Assembly (NCBI GenBank): GCA_964610875.1
Contig: CAZSWP010000011.1
Span: forward strand, 37,967-87,661
Source: an uncultured archaeon
GTDB taxonomy: Archaea; Asgardarchaeota; Thorarchaeia; Thorarchaeales; Thorarchaeaceae
Reading direction: 5' to 3'
Length of the DNA stretch: 49,695 nucleotides
Positions 24,489 to 45,044 of this stretch are shown here, piece after piece. Under the pieces are notes generated by a model. That model was not told the origin of the DNA and searched no databases. It was given only the letters and a program-made list of their open reading frames with translations. The translations under genes were made by a program, and so were the position numbers. Numbering within the stretch: position 1 is the first letter of the stretch; each line of letters opens with the position of its first letter.

Positions 24489-26522
24489 TCATTTTTTAAT
24501 CAATATCTCATGCTCATCGAAAATGCTTCTACTCGAATTTCCAATGAATATTCTATACACTCCAGGTTCTAATCGCCAATCGTGTCTTTTGATGTCATAG
24601 TATGCAAGGTCTCTCGCATTGATCTTGATTACGCTCTTAGCTTTTTCTTTATCTTTGATGTATATCTTCTTGAACCCAACTAACTCTTGTTTTGGTCGTT
24701 GTACTGCAGAATCTTCTATGCTTGCATATACTTGGATTACTTCCGAACCAATTCGTGGCCCAATATTCTCAAGCTCAACCTTCACTTCAAAACGATCGTC
24801 CATTTCATAAACTGTGGAACTCTCAATCAAGGAACTACCAAATATGAAATCAGTGTAGGAAAGTCCGAATCCAAATGGGAACAAGGGTTCAATCTCTTTA
24901 GTGTCAAACCAACGGTATCCTACTAGTATACCTTCTTCGTAATGGACATTCTTTTCTTCATCACCAGGATATGTCTTAGGATATCCTGTGCTATGTGCTG
25001 GTGAATCACTCAATATCTTCGGGAATGTAATGGGCAACTTACCTGAAGGTGATGTATCACCAAAGAGTACATTAGTAATCGCACGACCTGATTCCATCCC
25101 TGCATACCATGCAATCAAAACAGTAGGAACATTATCTAACCAATCATCCATTGAAATTGGACTGCCTGCAATCAATACAACTATTGTATTTGGATTGACC
25201 TTAGCTGTTTCGATTATAAGACTGATTTGTTCTCCTGGAAGTTTCAGAGTTTTCCTATCTGCTGTTTCAGAGTCCTTACCTTTTCCATGGTCTAGACCCG
25301 CAAAAATGATTGCGATGTCTGCTTTCTCAGGGTCATCAGTGAAACAATCTTTTCCTATCCGCTCTTTCAATCCTTCATAGGGAGTGATTTCGTATAGTGG
25401 GACGACAGCTGAAGAACCTCCATAGAGTAGCTTCCCAAACTTTTTCTTCAGATTTGGTCCTGCAACGAAGATTGTAGTAGCATCATTAGGATTTAACGGA
25501 AGGAGGTCTGAATCGTTCTTTAGAAGAACCATTCCTTCCTCTGCTATTTTTCTCGAGAGTTCCTGATGTTCTGGAGAATTTCGATAATCATGTCTTGGAG
25601 AATCTCCATTTTCGAAAGCACCACAAAGGAACATCACTCTTAGTATACGAAGAACCAGATCATCTATTGCTTCTTCTGAAAATAGTTTTTTCTCAAAAGA
25701 TTTCTGAAGAGAGCCTGTTTTGTACCTGGCAGGCCAAGGCATCTCCAATGAGAGACCTCCATTAACACAACCTTCTGTTGTTTCAATTGGTCTTGTTGCA
25801 AACCAATCTGAAACCACAAATCCATCGAAATTCCATCTCTCCATTAAGATATCTCGGATTAGGTACTTGTGCTCACAGCCATAGGTACCATTCACTTTGT
25901 TATAGGAACCCATAACTGCCCATGGATCTGCTTCAATTACGGTTTCACGAAAAGCTCTAAGATAAATCTCATGAAGTGTTCGTTCATCAACAACAGAATT
26001 GCTGGACCTACGGTCCGTTTCTTGATTATTCGCAGCATAGTGTTTCAAGCATGCCCCAATTCCCTCTTCCTGAACACCTTTGACAAAAGGTATAGCCATC
26101 TCTTTTGTTAGATGGGGGTCTTCACTAAAGTATTCGAATGTTCTGCCATTCAACGGGGTTCTATGAATATTGGTACCGGGTGCAAGTAACATATGCCGAC
26201 CAATGGAAGCTACTTCTCGTGCAATTGCTTTTCCCATTGCTCGTGGGAGGTCTCTATTCCAAGTTGCAGCAAGTGCTATAGTAGCTGGAAATCGTGTACA
26301 TTTTTTGAAACTCCCAGAATGTCTGGCAACACCCAATGGTCCATCTGTCATTTTAAAAGAGGGTATTTCCAATCGTTTGATCGGATCTGTTACATAAAAT
26401 CGCCTTCTGGCATTGCTAGTGAGTAGCTTAAATTTTTCCTCCAATGTGAGTCCAGCTAGCATTTCCCTAGCTTTAGATTCAACATACCTCTTCCGTTCAA
26501 CGTAGACATCCTTATTGTTCAT
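24489..26522 (-). CDS. GH3 beta-glucosidase / beta-xylosidase (cytoplasmic)
   Basis: MTDGPLGV, RTPLNGRTFEYFSEDP, CLKHY and VVSDW (nucleophile), YEEGILVGYRWFD, FPFGFGLSYT, and a C-terminal FN3-like domain. Confidence 0.95.
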   Translation of the reverse strand: MNNKDVYVERKRYVESKAREMLAGLTLEEKFKLLTSNARRRFYVTDPIKRLEIPSFKMTDGPLGVARHSGSFKKCTRFPATIALAATWNRDLPRAMGKAIAREVASIGRHMLLAPGTNIHRTPLNGRTFEYFSEDPHLTKEMAIPFVKGVQEEGIGACLKHYAANNQETDRRSSNSVVDERTLHEIYLRAFRETVIEADPWAVMGSYNKVNGTYGCEHKYLIRDILMERWNFDGFVVSDWFATRPIETTEGCVNGGLSLEMPWPARYKTGSLQKSFEKKLFSEEAIDDLVLRILRVMFLCGAFENGDSPRHDYRNSPEHQELSRKIAEEGMVLLKNDSDLLPLNPNDATTIFVAGPNLKKKFGKLLYGGSSAVVPLYEITPYEGLKERIGKDCFTDDPEKADIAIIFAGLDHGKGKDSETADRKTLKLPGEQISLIIETAKVNPNTIVVLIAGSPISMDDWLDNVPTVLIAWYAGMESGRAITNVLFGDTSPSGKLPITFPKILSDSPAHSTGYPKTYPGDEEKNVHYEEGILVGYRWFDTKEIEPLFPFGFGLSYTDFIFGSSLIESSTVYEMDDRFEVKVELENIGPRIGSEVIQVYASIEDSAVQRPKQELVGFKKIYIKDKEKAKSVIKINARDLAYYDIKRHDWRLEPGVYRIFIGNSSRSIFDEHEILIKK

Positions 26523-26612
26523 GACATTGTGGTCTCCATCTCAGAACAACCTCTCCACGAATAGATGGACTAAAATTAGTTCCGTCGAATAGCGTTGGTA
26601 TCAACTAATAAA

Positions 26613-27230
26613 TTAAGCCACCTTCTTGGCGAATATCCAATATTGTCTTTCTCCCCCCAGCTTGAGAACACCATCGAATTCTATCTCAAAACCAGCTTCT
26701 TTTACATCAGCTAATGTCTTACTCGGGTTGTTATTACTCCATAGCATTGGTTGTCCAAAGAAATTACTCATTCCTTCAGATTCAAAGACACCTGTGTTTA
26801 AGACAAGAATCCCTTCTTTCTTTAACATTCTATGGAAATTAAATATTATCGAAAAATGGTTTGCTCTCGGAATATGCCATAGTGTGTACACGCAAATGAT
26901 TCCATCAAACGACTCATTGGGAAAATCAAGTTCTAGAATATTCTTTTGAAGGAATTGAGCTTCAGGAACATTAGCTTGAGCTAGCTCTATCATCCGTTTG
27001 GAAATGTCAACACCAACAACTGTGAATCCTTTCTTCGTGAGAAATTCTGATGTTGGTTTTCCAACTCCACATCCCGCGTCCAACACCTGACCCGAAGGTG
27101 GTATTAGTTTTATAAATCTCTTCAATTCTCCCAAGAATTTCTTGTTATCTCGGTTGTTATGATAGATCTCTCCCATCTTGTCATAGCTTTCTTCTATGGT
27201 TCTGAATATATCCAAAACTATCAATTCCAT
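26613..27230 (-). CDS. Class I SAM-dependent methyltransferase
   Basis: VLDAGCGVG, VGVDIS, FDGIICVYTLWHIP and LKKEGILV motifs. Confidence 0.92.
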   Translation of the reverse strand: MELIVLDIFRTIEESYDKMGEIYHNNRDNKKFLGELKRFIKLIPPSGQVLDAGCGVGKPTSEFLTKKGFTVVGVDISKRMIELAQANVPEAQFLQKNILELDFPNESFDGIICVYTLWHIPRANHFSIIFNFHRMLKKEGILVLNTGVFESEGMSNFFGQPMLWSNNNPSKTLADVKEAGFEIEFDGVLKLGGERQYWIFAKKVA

Positions 27231-42092: not shown

Positions 42093-42464
42093 TCATTCTC
42101 TCTGCCTGCTCTCATAATCCTCGATTGCTCTATGCAGTGCATCGGCAGCAAGATTTGAACAATGCATCTTCTGAGGTGGTAGACCGTCAAGAGCTTCAGC
42201 TACTTGATTACGCGTGAGTTCCTTGGCTTCTTGAATTGTCTTTCCAATGACCATCTGTGTTGTCATTGAAGAAGTAGCAATAGCTGCAACGCATCCGAAT
42301 GTTTCCACCTTGGCATCTACAATAATGTCATCTTCTACTTTGATATAGATCCGCATCATATCCCCACATACAGGGTTTCCAACCTCTCCTATTCCATCAG
42401 GGTTCTCAATCTTTCCCATATTCTGTGGGTTTACGAAGTTTTCTTTCACTTTGTCTGAGTACAT
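42093..42464 (-). CDS. iscU: Fe-S cluster scaffold IscU/NifU-N (MisU-type)
   Basis: YSDKV..F.NP.N.G, GNPVCGD, FGCVAAIA and LPPQKMHCSNLA, with all three Cys present. Confidence 0.96.
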   Translation of the reverse strand: MYSDKVKENFVNPQNMGKIENPDGIGEVGNPVCGDMMRIYIKVEDDIIVDAKVETFGCVAAIATSSMTTQMVIGKTIQEAKELTRNQVAEALDGLPPQKMHCSNLAADALHRAIEDYESRQRE

Positions 42465-42546
42465 TCGGAATGCCTCACTTTAGATGCCCCTAAAATTTGC
42501 TTATCATTCTTACTCTATTACCATGAACTGGAATGAAAACATTCTC

Positions 42547-43308
42547 TCAATTTAGAGACCTGATGAAATCACAAATTCTTTCAATAACCAAGTCAACTGC
42601 TTTTTGTCCCTTCTCTTTGGTAGCTTTTGTCGAATAGCCAACAGTTCCAGATTCCGTGAAATCTTTCATTGTAAGATTTGTTGCTATTTGTGGGGGTTTT
42701 GCTAGCATGTTTGCTTCAACATACTCTGGGTATGGTGTTTTGCCAGGTTCATCAACTCGTTTTTCATCCAACACTCGCTGACCAAGTGCCCATGAAACCG
42801 AGGTTTCCATGTCACATGCATGAAAGACTGGGGGTGTGAATATCTCTGGCACTTTATCCATTATCATTGACCACCAATTCAACGCAAACACATTGGAATC
42901 AATGAGGTCTCGGAGTTCATGGAGAGCAACTGAGATTGCTGTAGTATTTCCGCCATGACCATTTAGAAGAATGATATTCTCAAAGCCATGTTCCGAAAGT
43001 GAAACGCAAATGTCAACATAAATGTTGGACAGTGTGCTCTCGCTAAGAGTTATTGTTCCTTTGAATTCCATGTGGTGAGGTGAATAGCCATATGCAAGAG
43101 TTGGAGCCAAGCTGACTTTGGGATCAGGCCATAATGCTTCACATACTAATTCACCAAATCTAGTAGCAATATAACTATCATTGTCTACTGGTAATGCTGG
43201 TCCATGCTGTTCGTTTGAACCCACAGGAACAATCACACTTTTGCACTCCTGCAAACGTTCTTCCACTTCTTCCCATGTCATTTTTGCTAATTGATACGGG
43301 ATTGACAT
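42547..43308 (-). CDS. Creatininase-family amidohydrolase
   Basis: PVGSNEQHGPALP..ND, GYSPHH..F.GTI, NGHGGN and HA...ETS motifs. ATG 43308 preferred. Confidence 0.9.
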   Translation of the reverse strand: MSIPYQLAKMTWEEVEERLQECKSVIVPVGSNEQHGPALPVDNDSYIATRFGELVCEALWPDPKVSLAPTLAYGYSPHHMEFKGTITLSESTLSNIYVDICVSLSEHGFENIILLNGHGGNTTAISVALHELRDLIDSNVFALNWWSMIMDKVPEIFTPPVFHACDMETSVSWALGQRVLDEKRVDEPGKTPYPEYVEANMLAKPPQIATNLTMKDFTESGTVGYSTKATKEKGQKAVDLVIERICDFIRSLN

Positions 43309-43373
43309 AGTGAAATCACTTTGTCCTCCCCTTATTATCATATATGTAGAACACAGAATTGCAGTCAGCATTG

Positions 43374-44591
43374 CTACCATTCATCACAAGGTAAATTATG
43401 ATGATGCTCGTTTTCATCAGTAGTTGACGGTGCAAAATATTCTCCTGATTTAAGTGGACTGAATTCCCTTAGACGCTCAACAGTTGTTGATAAGATGTCT
43501 ATAAATTCGTCTATTTCTTTTGTGTTGTTATAACGGGAAAACGACACTCTAAGGGAGCCATGAGAGACCTCGGGTGGATAGTTAAGACCCTTTAGTACGT
43601 GACTTCCCTGGAGTGTTTTTGAGGAACATGCTGACCCAGTCGAAACTGAAAACCCATTCATATCAAGATGAACCAGCATTGCCTCTCCCTCTATTTGTTT
43701 CACTAGCAATGATACAAGTCCGGGTATTCTTTGTGTCGGATGACCTGTGAATTCAATCTCAGGTATCTTTTCAGAAAGTCCATTTCGAAGATGATCAGCA
43801 AGTTGTTTCAAGTACTCTGAGTGTTTTGGTTCCCAGATTTCTACTGCTTTGGCAAAACCTACTATTGCTGGGATGCTCTCGACACCAGGTCTCAAGCGCC
43901 GTTCTTCATCTCCACCTTCATGGAGCCGTTCAATCTGAGTTTTTCTTCTGATATAGAGGGCACCAACACCTTTTGGTCCATGAACGAGATGTCCATCGAT
44001 TGTCACTAAATCAACTGGTATTTGCACTGTGTTGATTGGAATCTTCAGGTATGTCTGAGTTGCATCAATATGGAAGATAATCCCATTTGCAGAAGTAATC
44101 TCAGCTATTTTTTCAATTGGTTGGACAACTCCAACCTCACCATTCCCATGGTGTATAGAAACAAGAACTGTACTTTTACGGATTGCTTTTTGAAATTCAT
44201 CCAAGTCAATCAATCCATTCTTATCAACCTCGAGATAGGATATCTCATACCCCTCTCCTTCTAATCGTTGACAAGATTTCAGTACTGATTGTACTTCAAT
44301 TGAAGTTGTGATTATGTGTTTGCTACTCTCACGATTTACCTTGGCCACACCTCGAATTGCTAAGTTATTTGATTCTGTAGCTCCAGATGTAAAAATAATA
44401 GTTCGTGGATCTGCCTTTAATGAGCCTGCAATAATCTTTCTTGCATCCTCCATACCTCTAACAGCTGCAACATCTTGCGCATGACTCATCTCAAGACCAG
44501 ATGTCCCATAATATTCTCTAAAATATGGTAACATTGCTTCAATTACACGTTCATCCACCTGAGTAGAATTCGCGTTATCGAAATAGGGCAT
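43374..44591 (-). CDS. iscS: IscS/NifS-like cysteine desulfurase homologue lacking the canonical PLP Lys and His
   Basis: YFDNA, FTSGATESNN, HIDATQ, HGPKGVGAL, STGSAC322SS and SLRVSFSR are present. DGHL replaces S[GA]HK and EVQS replaces EHxA/S. Confidence 0.88.
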   Translation of the reverse strand: MPYFDNANSTQVDERVIEAMLPYFREYYGTSGLEMSHAQDVAAVRGMEDARKIIAGSLKADPRTIIFTSGATESNNLAIRGVAKVNRESSKHIITTSIEVQSVLKSCQRLEGEGYEISYLEVDKNGLIDLDEFQKAIRKSTVLVSIHHGNGEVGVVQPIEKIAEITSANGIIFHIDATQTYLKIPINTVQIPVDLVTIDGHLVHGPKGVGALYIRRKTQIERLHEGGDEERRLRPGVESIPAIVGFAKAVEIWEPKHSEYLKQLADHLRNGLSEKIPEIEFTGHPTQRIPGLVSLLVKQIEGEAMLVHLDMNGFSVSTGSACSSKTLQGSHVLKGLNYPPEVSHGSLRVSFSRYNNTKEIDEFIDILSTTVERLREFSPLKSGEYFAPSTTDENEHHHNLPCDEW

Positions 44592-44597
44592 CGACTG

Positions 44598-45044
44598 TCA
44601 GTCCTTACATGCTCTGCAGTCTTCCTTGACATGCTCACAATACTCACGGTGAATCTCACACATGACTCCCTTATCCCGCAATAGTTTGATGAGATGATTG
44701 ATCTCTCTTGTCATTGTTTCATAGATGAATTCTCCCTCGTCTCTTTCGTCCCAGGCGTCTATGATGACATCTGCAGATTTTCCTACTTCAGGTAGGATAT
44801 CCTCAGGAATCTCAACTTGGTCTCCACGTGATCTCTTTGACTTCTTAAGCTTGTATTGGGTTACTGCCGGCTCTGTAACACCAAGCATCTTCGCTATGGT
44901 CTTCTGTGCCATGCCTCGTTCAATCATAACTCTAGCTAGTTCTCTTCTAATGGCTGGAAGCACATACCAGACCTCGACTTCTTGAGGCATTAGCCAGGTA
45001 CGTTTTTTCCTACGTTTCTTGGTTCCACTTTCTGTTGATGACAT
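44598..45044 (-). CDS. Archaeal HTH transcriptional regulator with C-terminal Cys/His cluster
   Basis: PQEVEVWYVLPAIRRELA...QKTIAKMLGVTEPAVTQY (HTH) and CEIHREYC...CRAC. Stop is 6 bp before iscS. Confidence 0.88.
   Translation of the reverse strand: MSSTESGTKKRRKKRTWLMPQEVEVWYVLPAIRRELARVMIERGMAQKTIAKMLGVTEPAVTQYKLKKSKRSRGDQVEIPEDILPEVGKSADVIIDAWDERDEGEFIYETMTREINHLIKLLRDKGVMCEIHREYCEHVKEDCRACKD

What the first reader, a model, noticed from the sequence alone, without database searches (positions are those of the whole stretch)
42093..45044. Minimal Fe-S assembly locus built on an IscS that lacks the PLP-binding Lys and His
Seen: the Schiff-base motif S[GA]HK reads DGHL (Leu202, CTC at 43986-43988). 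The PLP-stacking EH reads EV (Val100). NNE and SGT read NGE and PGV. The mobile-loop Cys (GSAC322), the intact ORF and a normal IscU are retained. Established: E. coli IscS needs Lys206 and His104; Archaeoglobus fulgidus IscS lacks the Lys, has no desulfurase activity and lends its Cys as a cluster ligand on IscU. Inference: a more degenerate, probably PLP-free pseudo-desulfurase acting as co-scaffold or sulfide carrier, implying cysteine-independent, sulfide-fed Fe-S assembly. Several coordinated changes argue against sequencing error.
Basis: partly seen in the sequence, partly recalled or inferred. Interest (0 to 1): 0.78.

Follow-up and report, generated by a model that had tools for sequence, protein, structure and literature searches.

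The report
Cofactor-site-dead IscS paired with IscU
A Thorarchaeota (Asgard) genome carries a well-conserved look-alike of the sulfur-donating enzyme IscS that has lost most of its vitamin-B6 pocket but kept its sulfur-carrying cysteine and its IscU partner; it is a more extreme lineage of an oddity already known from Archaeoglobus, and it is not the cell's only iron-sulfur route.

Summary
The 405-aa IscS homologue (43374-44591, minus strand) reads Leu202 (CTC) at the Schiff-base Lys and Val100 at the stacking His. It also reads Gly151, Asp199 and Val237 at three further B6 contacts, while the GSAC322 loop is kept.

All 59 near-full-length orthologues aligned (57-70% identity) lack the Lys. 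dN/dS is 0.04-0.08, so this is a selected state and not decay or a sequencing error.

The gene always follows a Cys-rich HTH gene (24 of 24 loci) and usually precedes a normal IscU. The creatininase-family gene between them occurs only in this window.

Compared with A. fulgidus IscS (Lys to Asp, still binds PMP), this clade has lost more of the pocket. It has gained new invariant residues and a disordered acidic tail of the form His3...DDW.

The most likely role is a non-catalytic partner of IscU that lends Cys322.

"Cysteine-independent assembly" does not follow from the data. The same genome also holds:
- a TusA-DsrE-IscS(Lys to Asp)-IscU cassette;
- SmsCB;
- a Lys-bearing SufS-like gene;
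- a Lys-bearing NifS-SelD fusion.

Loss of the Lys independently of the Archaeoglobus type is not shown (AU p 0.59).

This scan has already met the same kind of gene in other Asgard genomes. Verdict: a new variant of a known kind, of moderate interest.

The parts
44598..45044 (-). 148-aa XRE-type HTH protein with a C-terminal Cys/His motif (C129, H132, C136, C143, C146). It is the first gene of the cluster and probably its regulator.
   Evidence: Only weak HTH_37/HTH_3 matches, and no NCBIfam family. It lies directly upstream of the IscS-like gene in 24 of 24 orthologous loci; one of these is partly masked. C129, H132, C143 and C146 are invariant in the 25 readable rows, and C136 is missing in three of them. 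There are 340 homologues, none with a Pfam domain on record, and the names that sources give are mostly Thorarchaeota. Its stop lies 6 nt before the iscS start.
43374..44591 (-). IscS* : a 405-aa type-I IscS/NifS-fold protein without the Schiff-base Lys or the stacking His.
   Evidence: PF00266 at E 9.6e-73, but below every NCBIfam desulfurase equivalog cut-off. The AF2 model has pLDDT 90.6 and TM 0.90 to NFS1, A. fulgidus IscS and E. coli IscS. The Lys is lost across the whole clade. dN/dS is 0.04-0.08.
43986..43988 (-). Leu202 codon (CTC), at the position of E. coli Lys206.
   Evidence: Among 59 orthologues this position is His 37, Leu 12, Arg 8 and Val 2, while its neighbours D[GA]H and [IV]HGPKG are fixed.
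44292..44294 (-). Val100 codon (GTA), at the position of E. coli His104.
   Evidence: In the clade this position is Thr 26, Val 25, His 6 and Arg 1. It is His in 100% of canonical sequences.
43995..43997 (-). Asp199, at the position of the phosphate-binding Ser203.
   Evidence: Asp in 97% of the clade and in 0% of 141 canonical representatives.
43626..43628 (-). Cys322 of the mobile loop GSACSS (E. coli Cys328).
   Evidence: The loop reads GSACSS in every clade member whose sequence covers it. Cys is in all 182 aligned rows that cover the column. The loop has low pLDDT (322-324), as a mobile loop should.
43377..43445 (-). Clade-specific C-terminal tail (residues 383-405): G-x-Y-F-A, an acidic run, HHH, then D-[LIV]-P-x-D-[DE]-W at the C-terminus.
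   Evidence: The tail is conserved in the clade: G383 100%, Y385 97%, H398 83%, W405 83%. It is absent from canonical, K-to-T-clade and Archaeoglobus-type sequences. AF2 predicts it disordered, with pLDDT below 50.
42547..43380 (-). Creatininase-family (PF02633) hydrolase, up to 277 aa, inserted between iscS* and iscU.
   Evidence: PF02633 at E 3.8e-62, below all NCBIfam equivalog cut-offs. None of the 24 other loci has it. Other genomes carry unrelated genes at the same junction.
42093..42464 (-). IscU scaffold, 123 aa, canonical.
   Evidence: PF01592 at E 1.2e-46. TIGR03419 scores above its cut-off. It aligns with PDB 7c8m and 4eb5_C at E about 1e-51; Cys33, Asp35, Cys58, His101 and Cys102 are present.

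Best explanation
IscS* is a non-catalytic descendant of a type-I cysteine desulfurase. It keeps the IscS fold, the mobile Cys322 loop and the substrate-site Arg. It has lost the Schiff-base Lys and most other B6 contacts, so it cannot carry out PLP-dependent desulfuration.

By analogy with A. fulgidus IscS2-IscU, I propose that it works as the structural partner of the neighbouring IscU. It would hold IscU in an (IscS*-IscU)2 complex and offer Cys322 as the fourth ligand, or as the sulfur-handling thiol, for the nascent [2Fe-2S] cluster. Sulfur would come from outside the protein: as sulfide, or from another donor in the cell.

The Cys/His-bearing HTH protein upstream probably regulates the cluster.

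Shown here: the residue losses, their conservation under purifying selection, the intact fold, and the gene linkage. Inferred: complex formation, the role of Cys322 as ligand, the absence of cofactor, the sulfur source, and the regulator's function.
For: - Six of nine B6 contacts (E. coli numbering, from my own knowledge of the E. coli IscS structure) are replaced: H104V, N155G, S203D, K206L and T243V here, and Q183H in 61% of the clade. T76, D180 and H205 are kept.
- The former Lys position drifts (His, Leu, Arg, Val) between fixed neighbours, as expected for a site without a role.
- All 59 near-full-length orthologues aligned lack the Lys. dN/dS is 0.04-0.08 in unsaturated pairs.
- The GSACSS loop is kept in every clade member whose sequence covers it.
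- The fold is intact: pLDDT 90.6, and TM 0.90 to NFS1, A. fulgidus IscS-IscU (4eb5) and E. coli IscS.
- A canonical IscU lies downstream here. It also lies downstream in 14 of the 19 other loci whose contig reaches far enough, and 2-14 kb away on the same contig in four of the other five.
- Precedent: A. fulgidus IscS (Lys to Asp) has no desulfurase activity and gives a Cys ligand to the IscU cluster (PMC7585200, PMC8918507, PMC13066941).
Against: - No biochemistry exists for this clade.
- D180, T76, H205 and the substrate-site Arg are retained, and A. fulgidus IscS still binds PMP. Some ligand binding in the pocket therefore cannot be excluded.
- New clade-invariant residues (T30, D40, D199, E229, R232, T282) and the His3/acidic/Trp tail point to a gained function that the co-scaffold model does not explain.
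- In genus g13 the HTH-IscS* pair stays together while IscU is displaced by kilobases, so the tightest link is to the regulator and not to IscU.
- The window's copy deviates at 10 of 137 clade-invariant sites (clade median 1). Its own branch cannot be tested for relaxed selection, because dS is saturated against every available relative.
Confidence: 0.6

Rival explanations
1. Persulfide relay. Cys322 of IscS* accepts sulfane sulfur from a real desulfurase (the SufS-like protein on contig 32 or the NifS-SelD fusion on contig 4) or from the TusA/DsrE carriers on contig 29, and passes it to IscU. This would be a SufE/SufU-like transfer role rather than a pure ligand role.
For: The genome encodes two class-V enzymes with Lys and His intact, and also TusA and DsrE. 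The Cys loop is invariant and predicted mobile. Relatives in the K-to-T clade sit directly beside TusA-DsrE.
Against: No carrier or desulfurase gene lies in any of the 24 other Thor-type loci (about 1.5 kb each side) or in the 49.7-kb window. No interaction data exist. This reading overlaps with the best explanation rather than excluding it.
Confidence: 0.2
2. Gained function. The rebuilt pocket (Asp176, Asp199, His201, often His179 and His202) and/or the His3-acidic tail bind a metal. IscS* would then be an iron donor or chaperone, or a docking subunit for a further partner of IscU.
For: New residues are invariant in the clade and absent from canonical sequences: D199 0%, D40 0%, E229 0%, T30 0%. 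The tail is conserved and disordered, and ends in an acidic run plus Trp, which is typical of docking peptides. The sister lineage P0129 already has the HHH tail.
Against: His179 and His202 are not conserved; the window itself has Gln and Leu there. I had no model coordinates to test whether the residues cluster. The terminal [DE][DENS]W is not a genome-wide signal: only 4 ORFs of 150 aa or more carry it.
Confidence: 0.12
3. Residual or alternative B6 chemistry. The protein still binds PLP or PMP non-covalently, or through another Lys such as the one in GPKG, and turns over cysteine or a related substrate slowly.
For: D180, T76, H205 and the substrate-site Arg are kept. A. fulgidus IscS binds PMP without the Lys (PMC8918507).
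Against: The stacking His is gone. The phosphate-binding Ser is an Asp in 97% of the clade, the phosphate-binding Thr is Val or Ile, and the Asn is Gly. The GPKG Lys is near-invariant in all IscS, including the inactive A. fulgidus protein, so it is not a substitute. No Lys is invariant in the clade and absent from all canonical sequences; K325 is the only candidate and sits in 16% of canonical and 71% of K-to-T-clade sequences.
Confidence: 0.06
4. Decaying pseudogene or assembly error in this MAG.
For: The window's copy has the longest terminal branch in the clade and 10 deviations at clade-invariant sites.
Against: The ORF is intact. The same substitutions occur in 24 other genomes of 8 genera. 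dN/dS is 0.04-0.08 in the clade. Most of the window's deviations are conservative: A to S, L to M, I to V, D to N.
Confidence: 0.02

Closest known systems
Archaeoglobus fulgidus IscS2-IscU (AF0564/AF0565; PDB 4eb5, 4eb7, 4hvk; D199K variant 4r5f)
   Same: Both are type-I IscS-fold proteins without the Schiff-base Lys, with the loop Cys kept, encoded beside a canonical IscU. In A. fulgidus the protein has no desulfurase activity and gives a Cys ligand to the [2Fe-2S] cluster on IscU (PMC7585200, PMC8918507). The model of the window protein has TM 0.90 to 4eb5.
   Different: The window protein is not its orthologue. The orthologue in this genome is the contig-29 paralogue (E 4e-134 to 4eb5, same SSND motif), whereas the window protein scores 4e-91. 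The Archaeoglobus type keeps His104, Asn155 and Ser203 and binds PMP. The Thor type has Val/Thr, Gly and Asp at those positions, plus Val/Ile at Thr243, and it has a His3...DDW tail. It is led by an HTH gene and has no TusA-DsrE beside it.
Methanosarcina acetivorans IscS1 (isc1 cluster) and the wider set of Lys-less IscS genes linked to TusA-DsrE
   Same: A Lys-less IscS paralogue that coexists with other IscSU copies and with SufBC/SmsCB in an anaerobic archaeon (PMC7585200).
   Different: I did not place the M. acetivorans sequence in my trees. The K-to-T clade sampled here (IEDFPV, SAHT motifs) and this genome's contig-29 cassette carry TusA-DsrE. The Thor-type loci do not.
MIS (MisS-MisU), the minimal ISC-like system (as summarised in PMC13066941 and PMC12192291)
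   Same: A two-component IscS-like plus IscU-like pair with no chaperone, ferredoxin or carrier genes in the operon, coexisting with SMS in an archaeon.
   Different: MIS is described as containing a cysteine desulfurase. This MisS-like protein cannot be one by PLP chemistry.
Canonical IscS/NifS/NFS1 cysteine desulfurases (PDB 1p3w, 3lvl, 5wlw, 9wep)
   Same: 40-45% identity, the same fold (rmsd 1.2-1.5 A), the same loop Cys and an IscU partner.
   Different: It lacks Lys206, His104, Asn155, Ser203 and Thr243. It scores below all NCBIfam equivalog cut-offs, for example NifS 407.7 against 530.75 bits.
IscR ([2Fe-2S] Rrf2-family regulator of isc operons), for the upstream HTH gene only
   Same: A small DNA-binding protein encoded first in an iscSU cluster, with three invariant Cys and one invariant His. 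That ligand set is the one IscR uses (my own knowledge).
   Different: It has no Rrf2 domain, only weak XRE-type HTH matches. Cluster binding is untested.

Membership tests
Type-I cysteine desulfurase (IscS/NifS/NFS1), as an enzyme | Class-V aminotransferase fold of IscS type | tested here: met
   PF00266 at E 9.6e-73. The AF2 model has TM 0.90 and rmsd 1.2-1.5 A to NFS1, IscS and A. fulgidus IscS.
Type-I cysteine desulfurase (IscS/NifS/NFS1), as an enzyme | Schiff-base Lys (E. coli Lys206) | tested here: not met
   Leu202, codon CTC. Lys is present in 141 of 141 canonical representatives.
Type-I cysteine desulfurase (IscS/NifS/NFS1), as an enzyme | Cofactor-stacking His104 and the contacts Asn155, Ser203 and Thr243 | tested here: not met
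   Val100, Gly151, Asp199 and Val237. The canonical residues are 97-100% conserved for His104, Asn155 and Thr243, and Ser is the majority residue at Ser203, with no Asp.
Type-I cysteine desulfurase (IscS/NifS/NFS1), as an enzyme | Nucleophilic Cys on the mobile loop (Cys328) | tested here: met
   GSAC322SS, kept in every clade member that covers it.
Type-I cysteine desulfurase (IscS/NifS/NFS1), as an enzyme | Score above a curated equivalog cut-off (NCBIfam NifS, IscS, DndA) | tested here: not met
   407.7 against 530.75; 364.4 against 548; 355.4 against 643.2; 336.5 against 480.
Type-I cysteine desulfurase (IscS/NifS/NFS1), as an enzyme | Cysteine desulfurase activity and bound PLP | not testable with these tools
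   This needs purified protein.
A. fulgidus-type inactive IscS paralogue | Lys replaced, loop Cys kept, IscU encoded nearby | tested here: met
   Here a creatininase-family gene is inserted between the two.
A. fulgidus-type inactive IscS paralogue | Orthology with AF0564 (SSND motif, His104 kept) | tested here: not met
   The contig-29 paralogue is the orthologue (E 4e-134). In the free trees the window protein lies in a different, strongly supported clade. A common Lys-less ancestor is nevertheless not rejected (AU p 0.59).
A. fulgidus-type inactive IscS paralogue | B6 pocket retained (PMP bound in 4hvk) | tested here: inconclusive
   By sequence, three pocket residues that the Archaeoglobus type keeps are lost here. 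Binding itself was not testable.
A. fulgidus-type inactive IscS paralogue | The Cys serves as ligand of the [2Fe-2S] cluster on IscU | not testable with these tools
   This needs a structure or spectroscopy of the complex.
MIS (MisS-MisU) minimal system | An IscS-like plus IscU-like pair with no chaperone, ferredoxin or A-type carrier genes in the cluster | tested here: met
   The cluster holds the HTH gene, IscS*, the creatininase-family gene and IscU only. The flanks are a Sir2-family gene, an ORF with no family and an alpha/beta hydrolase.
MIS (MisS-MisU) minimal system | MisS acts as the cysteine desulfurase of the pair | tested here: not met
   The catalytic Lys and His are absent.
IscU/NifU-N scaffold | Three Cys, the Asp and the His ligand set; a score above the curated cut-off | tested here: met
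   TIGR03419 scores 200.5 against 187.9 bits. The alignment to 7c8m and 4eb5_C shows the residues in place.
IscR/Rrf2 regulators (for the HTH gene) | Rrf2 winged-helix domain | tested here: not met
   No Rrf2 hit. Only weak HTH_37/HTH_3 matches (E 0.004-0.008), and PDB matches are weak XRE-type ones.

The most novel reading that the evidence does not exclude
The Thor-type IscS* is not merely a dead enzyme but a rebuilt Fe-S assembly subunit. Its former B6 pocket has been refitted with new invariant acidic and polar residues. It has gained a disordered His3-acidic-Trp tail that binds iron or recruits a partner. The whole unit is controlled by an Asgard-specific Cys3His HTH protein that senses cluster status, as an analogue of IscR. 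The graded series seen here would then record, step by step, how an enzyme became a scaffold. That series runs from the Lys-bearing, HTH-linked IscS of G025, through the P0129 type (Lys to Leu, His kept, HHH tail), to the Thor type.
Probability: 0.15. Interest if true: 0.7.

Novelty: new variant of a known kind. Interest (0 to 1): 0.45.

Why it matters
A. fulgidus IscS raised a question that is still open: how does an IscS-IscU pair build clusters without desulfurase chemistry, and why does it still hold PMP (PMC8918507)?

This clade is a natural, strongly selected version in which the cofactor pocket itself appears to be gone. It could therefore separate the scaffold or ligand role of IscS from any residual B6 role.

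It occurs in Asgard archaea together with three other candidate sulfur and cluster routes, so the division of labour between them can be tested. The graded relatives give an evolutionary series from enzyme to non-enzyme.

It does not show that these organisms make Fe-S clusters without cysteine.

Tried and rejected
I took gene context from the genome search and the fetch from genomes instead.
2. A functional link between the creatininase-family gene and Fe-S assembly is rejected. The gene is absent from all 24 other loci, and unrelated genes occupy the same junction elsewhere.
3. The claim that the Thor type lost its Lys independently of the Archaeoglobus type is not upheld. Free trees separate the two. 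However, a tree with all these Lys-less lineages held together has a log-likelihood 12.3 units higher, and the AU test gives p 0.59.
4. I tested whether the C-terminal ...DDW is a genome-wide targeting signal like the C-terminal tripeptide that the eukaryotic CIA machinery recognises (my own knowledge). Only 4 ORFs of 150 aa or more end in [DE][DENS]W, and 17 end in [LIMV][DES][WF]; I saw no link to Fe-S assembly in that short list, which I did not annotate. The idea is unsupported.
5. I looked for an operator palindrome in the 145-bp HTH/Sir2 intergenic region and found no inverted repeat.
6. I looked for another Lys that is invariant only in this clade and could hold PLP. None was found; K325 is also present in 16% of canonical and 71% of K-to-T-clade sequences.
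7. The 2022 MIS/SMS paper (doi 10.1038/s41559-022-01857-1) is not held, so I could not check what it says about Lys-less MisS.
8. No model coordinates are available, so I could not measure distances in the pocket.
Full report
**What is there**

The finding's coordinates hold four genes on the minus strand:
- A 148-aa HTH protein (44598-45044).
- A 405-aa IscS homologue, here called IscS* (43374-44591). It starts 6 nt after the HTH stop.
- A creatininase-family protein (42547-43380). Its longest ORF overlaps the IscS* stop by 7 nt, although a later start is possible.
- A 123-aa IscU (42093-42464), 82 nt further on.

Pfam gives Aminotran_5 (E 9.6e-73), Creatininase (3.8e-62) and NifU_N (1.2e-46). 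The first protein gets only weak HTH matches. Close homologues are named Candidatus Thorarchaeota. The window is contig 11 of a 3.75-Mb assembly that is 95% complete.

**Check of the observation**

- DGHL where S[GA]HK is expected. Leu202 is CTC at 43986-43988.
- IEVQSV where IEH is expected. Val100 is GTA at 44292-44294.
- NGE where NNE is expected.
- RPGV where R[SA]GT is expected.
- GSAC322 is kept.

I compared these positions with 141 canonical IscS/NifS representatives, one per 50%-identity cluster of a 1.8-billion-protein library. The canonical residues are His 100%, Lys 100%, Asn 97% and Thr 99%.

The residue roles and E. coli numbers come from my own knowledge of the E. coli IscS structure. 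The conservation figures are computed here.

IscU is normal. It passes the TIGR03419 equivalog cut-off. It aligns with the M. thermoacetophila and A. fulgidus IscU structures at E about 1e-51, with all ligand residues in place.

**Not an error and not decay**

All 59 near-full-length orthologues aligned (57-70% identity) lack the Lys. The position reads His 37, Leu 12, Arg 8 and Val 2, between fixed neighbours D[GA]H and [IV]HGPKG. The His104 position reads Thr 26, Val 25, His 6 and Arg 1. The loop reads GSACSS in every member that covers it.

Among 301 Asgard genomes sampled, the orthologue (E below 1e-160) occurs in 24 others. All of them lie in 8 genera of the window's own GTDB family. The clade forms its own 50%-identity cluster, and the next relatives are 40-45% identical.

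For orthologue pairs whose dS is not saturated, dN/dS is 0.04-0.08.

The window's own copy is the most divergent member of the clade (terminal branch 0.30). It departs at 10 of 137 clade-invariant sites, against a median of 1 and a maximum of 12, and most of these changes are conservative. Its own branch cannot be tested, because dS is saturated against every relative.

**The active site is rebuilt, not only eroded**

Some positions are at least 85% conserved in canonical sequences and differ in the clade:
- the Asn of the GNPSS motif becomes Thr30 (100% of the clade);
- a Gly becomes Asp40 (100%);
- His104, Asn155 and Gln183 change (Gln183 is His in 61%);
- Ser203 becomes Asp199 (97%);
- Lys206 is lost;
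- Thr243 becomes Val or Ile;
- an Asn becomes Thr282 (100%).

Two further positions are not that conserved in canonical sequences but are fixed in the clade. Glu229 (100%) stands where canonical sequences read only Gln or His. Arg232 (100%) is also new.

Thr76, Asp180, His205 and the substrate-site Arg are retained.

The clade also has a 23-residue tail: G-x-Y-F-A, an acidic run, HHH, then D-[LIV]-P-x-D-[DE]-W at the C-terminus. Canonical, K-to-T-clade and Archaeoglobus-type sequences lack it.

An AlphaFold2 model built on 102 sequences is confident (pLDDT 90.6, pTM 0.88). The exceptions are the Cys loop (322-324) and the tail (383-405), both below 50. The model superposes on NFS1, A. fulgidus IscS and E. 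coli IscS at TM 0.90 and 1.2-1.5 A.

**Gene context**

The HTH gene lies directly upstream of IscS* in 24 of 24 other loci. A divergent Sir2-family gene lies beyond it in 16 of them.

IscU follows IscS* in 14 of the 19 loci whose contig extends far enough. The other five all belong to genus g13. In four of them a short IscU lies 2-14 kb away on the same contig.

The IscS*/IscU junction is a variable spot:
- creatininase only in this window;
- a 366-aa protein with no family in G236;
- a Zn-ribbon protein in G164;
- rubrerythrin-like ORFs downstream in g13.

The creatininase-family gene is therefore a lineage-specific insertion and not part of the system. No TusA or DsrE gene occurs in any Thor-type locus or anywhere in the window.

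In the HTH protein, Cys129, His132, Cys143 and Cys146 are invariant in the 25 readable rows, and Cys136 is missing in three of them. Its 340 homologues carry no Pfam domain and, where sources name them, are mostly called Thorarchaeota.

**The rest of the genome**

The same assembly encodes:
- On contig 29, TusA-DsrE-IscS-IscU. This IscS has the SSND motif (Lys to Asp, His kept) and is the true orthologue of A. fulgidus IscS2 (E 4e-134 to 4eb5). This IscU carries a weak, partial pyridine-nucleotide-disulfide-oxidoreductase-like extension.
- On contig 35, SmsC-SmsB, the minimal SUF pair.
- On contig 32, a SufS-like protein with Lys, His and Cys intact.
- On contig 4, a 758-aa NifS-SelD fusion with Lys and His intact.
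- On contig 3, a second SufS-like protein without the Lys.

The window's locus is thus one of at least three candidate Fe-S assembly routes, and PLP-competent desulfurases exist. Cysteine-independent assembly is possible but is not implied by the data.

**Evolution**

The trees were FastTree on 183 rows and IQ-TREE on 64-66 rows, the latter with the B6-site columns removed. They give the following picture:
- The Thor clade has 100% support.
- Its sister is P0129 (Lys to Leu, His kept, an HHH tail without the terminal Trp), at 95% in one tree.
- In the tree a Lys-bearing IscS from genome G025 comes next (I did not read the support of that node). It is also preceded by a homologue of the HTH gene (31% identity) and followed by IscU, TusA and DsrE.
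- A broad K-to-T/H-to-D clade, linked to TusA-DsrE, belongs to the same starred group.
- The Archaeoglobus type falls elsewhere in the free trees.

This looks like a graded series from enzyme to non-enzyme. However, a tree that holds the Thor, K-to-T and Archaeoglobus-type lineages together has a log-likelihood 12.3 units higher than the quick free tree, and the AU test gives p 0.59. Neither independent loss nor a single origin is shown.

About 15 of the 149 other 50%-cluster representatives nearest the query lack the Lys (my count from the tree labels), so Lys-less IscS is recurrent and widespread.

**Mechanism**

The literature gives the precedent. A. fulgidus IscS has Asp at the Lys position and has no desulfurase activity. 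It binds PMP and provides a Cys ligand to the [2Fe-2S] cluster on IscU. Sulfide has been proposed as the sulfur source (PMC7585200, PMC8918507, PMC13066941).

The Thor type has in addition lost the stacking His, the Asn, and both hydroxyl residues that hold the phosphate, one of them replaced by Asp. A B6-free protein is therefore the most economical reading.

I judge a non-catalytic IscU partner that lends Cys322 the most likely role (0.6). Rivals are:
- a persulfide-relay role (0.2);
- a gained metal-binding or docking role (0.12);
- residual B6 chemistry (0.06);
- decay or error (0.02).

Only the residue pattern, the selection, the fold and the gene linkage are shown. All biochemistry is inferred.

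**Novelty**

Inactive Lys-less IscS is known from A. fulgidus and from M. acetivorans IscS1. In the held papers I found no description of this Thorarchaeota clade, its extended pocket loss, its tail or its HTH partner. I could not read the 2022 MIS/SMS paper.

Earlier notes of this scan describe the same kind of gene in other Asgard genomes, and the TusA-DsrE cassettes as well. My results agree with them and were obtained independently on this genome.

Verdict: a new variant of a known kind, of moderate interest.

Noticed in passing
L042:3682-5486 (own genome, contig 29, bases 15681-17485), plus IscU at L010:1093-1872: A second 'dead IscS' cassette: TusA (81 aa), DsrE (117 aa), IscS with Lys to Asp (the A. 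fulgidus IscS2 orthologue, E 4e-134 to 4eb5), and a 259-aa IscU carrying a weak, partial Pyr_redox-like C-terminal extension.
   Followed up: partly
Own genome, contig 4, bases 101092-103365 (L002): A 758-aa fusion of a NifS-like domain (Lys and His intact) with a C-terminal part that I read as SelD (selenophosphate synthetase) from the sequence; no family search was run on that part. It is a candidate selenocysteine lyase or cysteine desulfurase.
   Followed up: no
Own genome, contig 3, bases 87714-88943 (L004), and contig 32, bases 25434-26720 (L001): Two SufS-like class-V proteins. The contig-32 copy keeps Lys, His and Cys and stands alone beside an RPA-like gene. The contig-3 copy has no Lys at the Schiff-base position (SGNIG).
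   Followed up: no
window:42547-43380 (minus strand): A creatininase-family hydrolase below every NCBIfam equivalog cut-off (MftE, IolN, creatininase, ArfB). It is inserted between iscS* and iscU only in this genome. Its function is unknown.
   Followed up: partly
window:44598-45044 (minus strand): An HTH protein with invariant Cys129, His132, Cys143 and Cys146, plus Cys136 in most copies. It belongs to an uncharacterised family of 340 members without any Pfam domain, and it always precedes the Lys-less IscS. It is a possible cluster-sensing analogue of IscR. No inverted repeat was found in its 145-bp upstream region.
   Followed up: partly
window:45190-45915 (plus strand): A Sir2-family deacylase, divergently transcribed from the HTH gene. 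The same arrangement occurs in 16 of 24 orthologous loci.
   Followed up: no
L039 (G025, contig 79, bases 11844-15980): An HTH homologue (31% identity), then an IscS with a canonical Lys/His active site, then IscU, TusA and DsrE. In the tree this IscS branches next to the Thor clade and its sister P0129. It is a possible pre-loss stage of the system.
   Followed up: partly
L043:4834-5289 and L045:4156-4590 (genus g13): A rubrerythrin-like ORF lies just downstream of IscS* where IscU has been displaced by several kilobases. A DUF2148 ferredoxin-domain protein lies nearby.
   Followed up: no
window:41752-42084 (plus strand): A 110-aa ORF convergent on iscU, with no Pfam or NCBIfam match.
   Followed up: no
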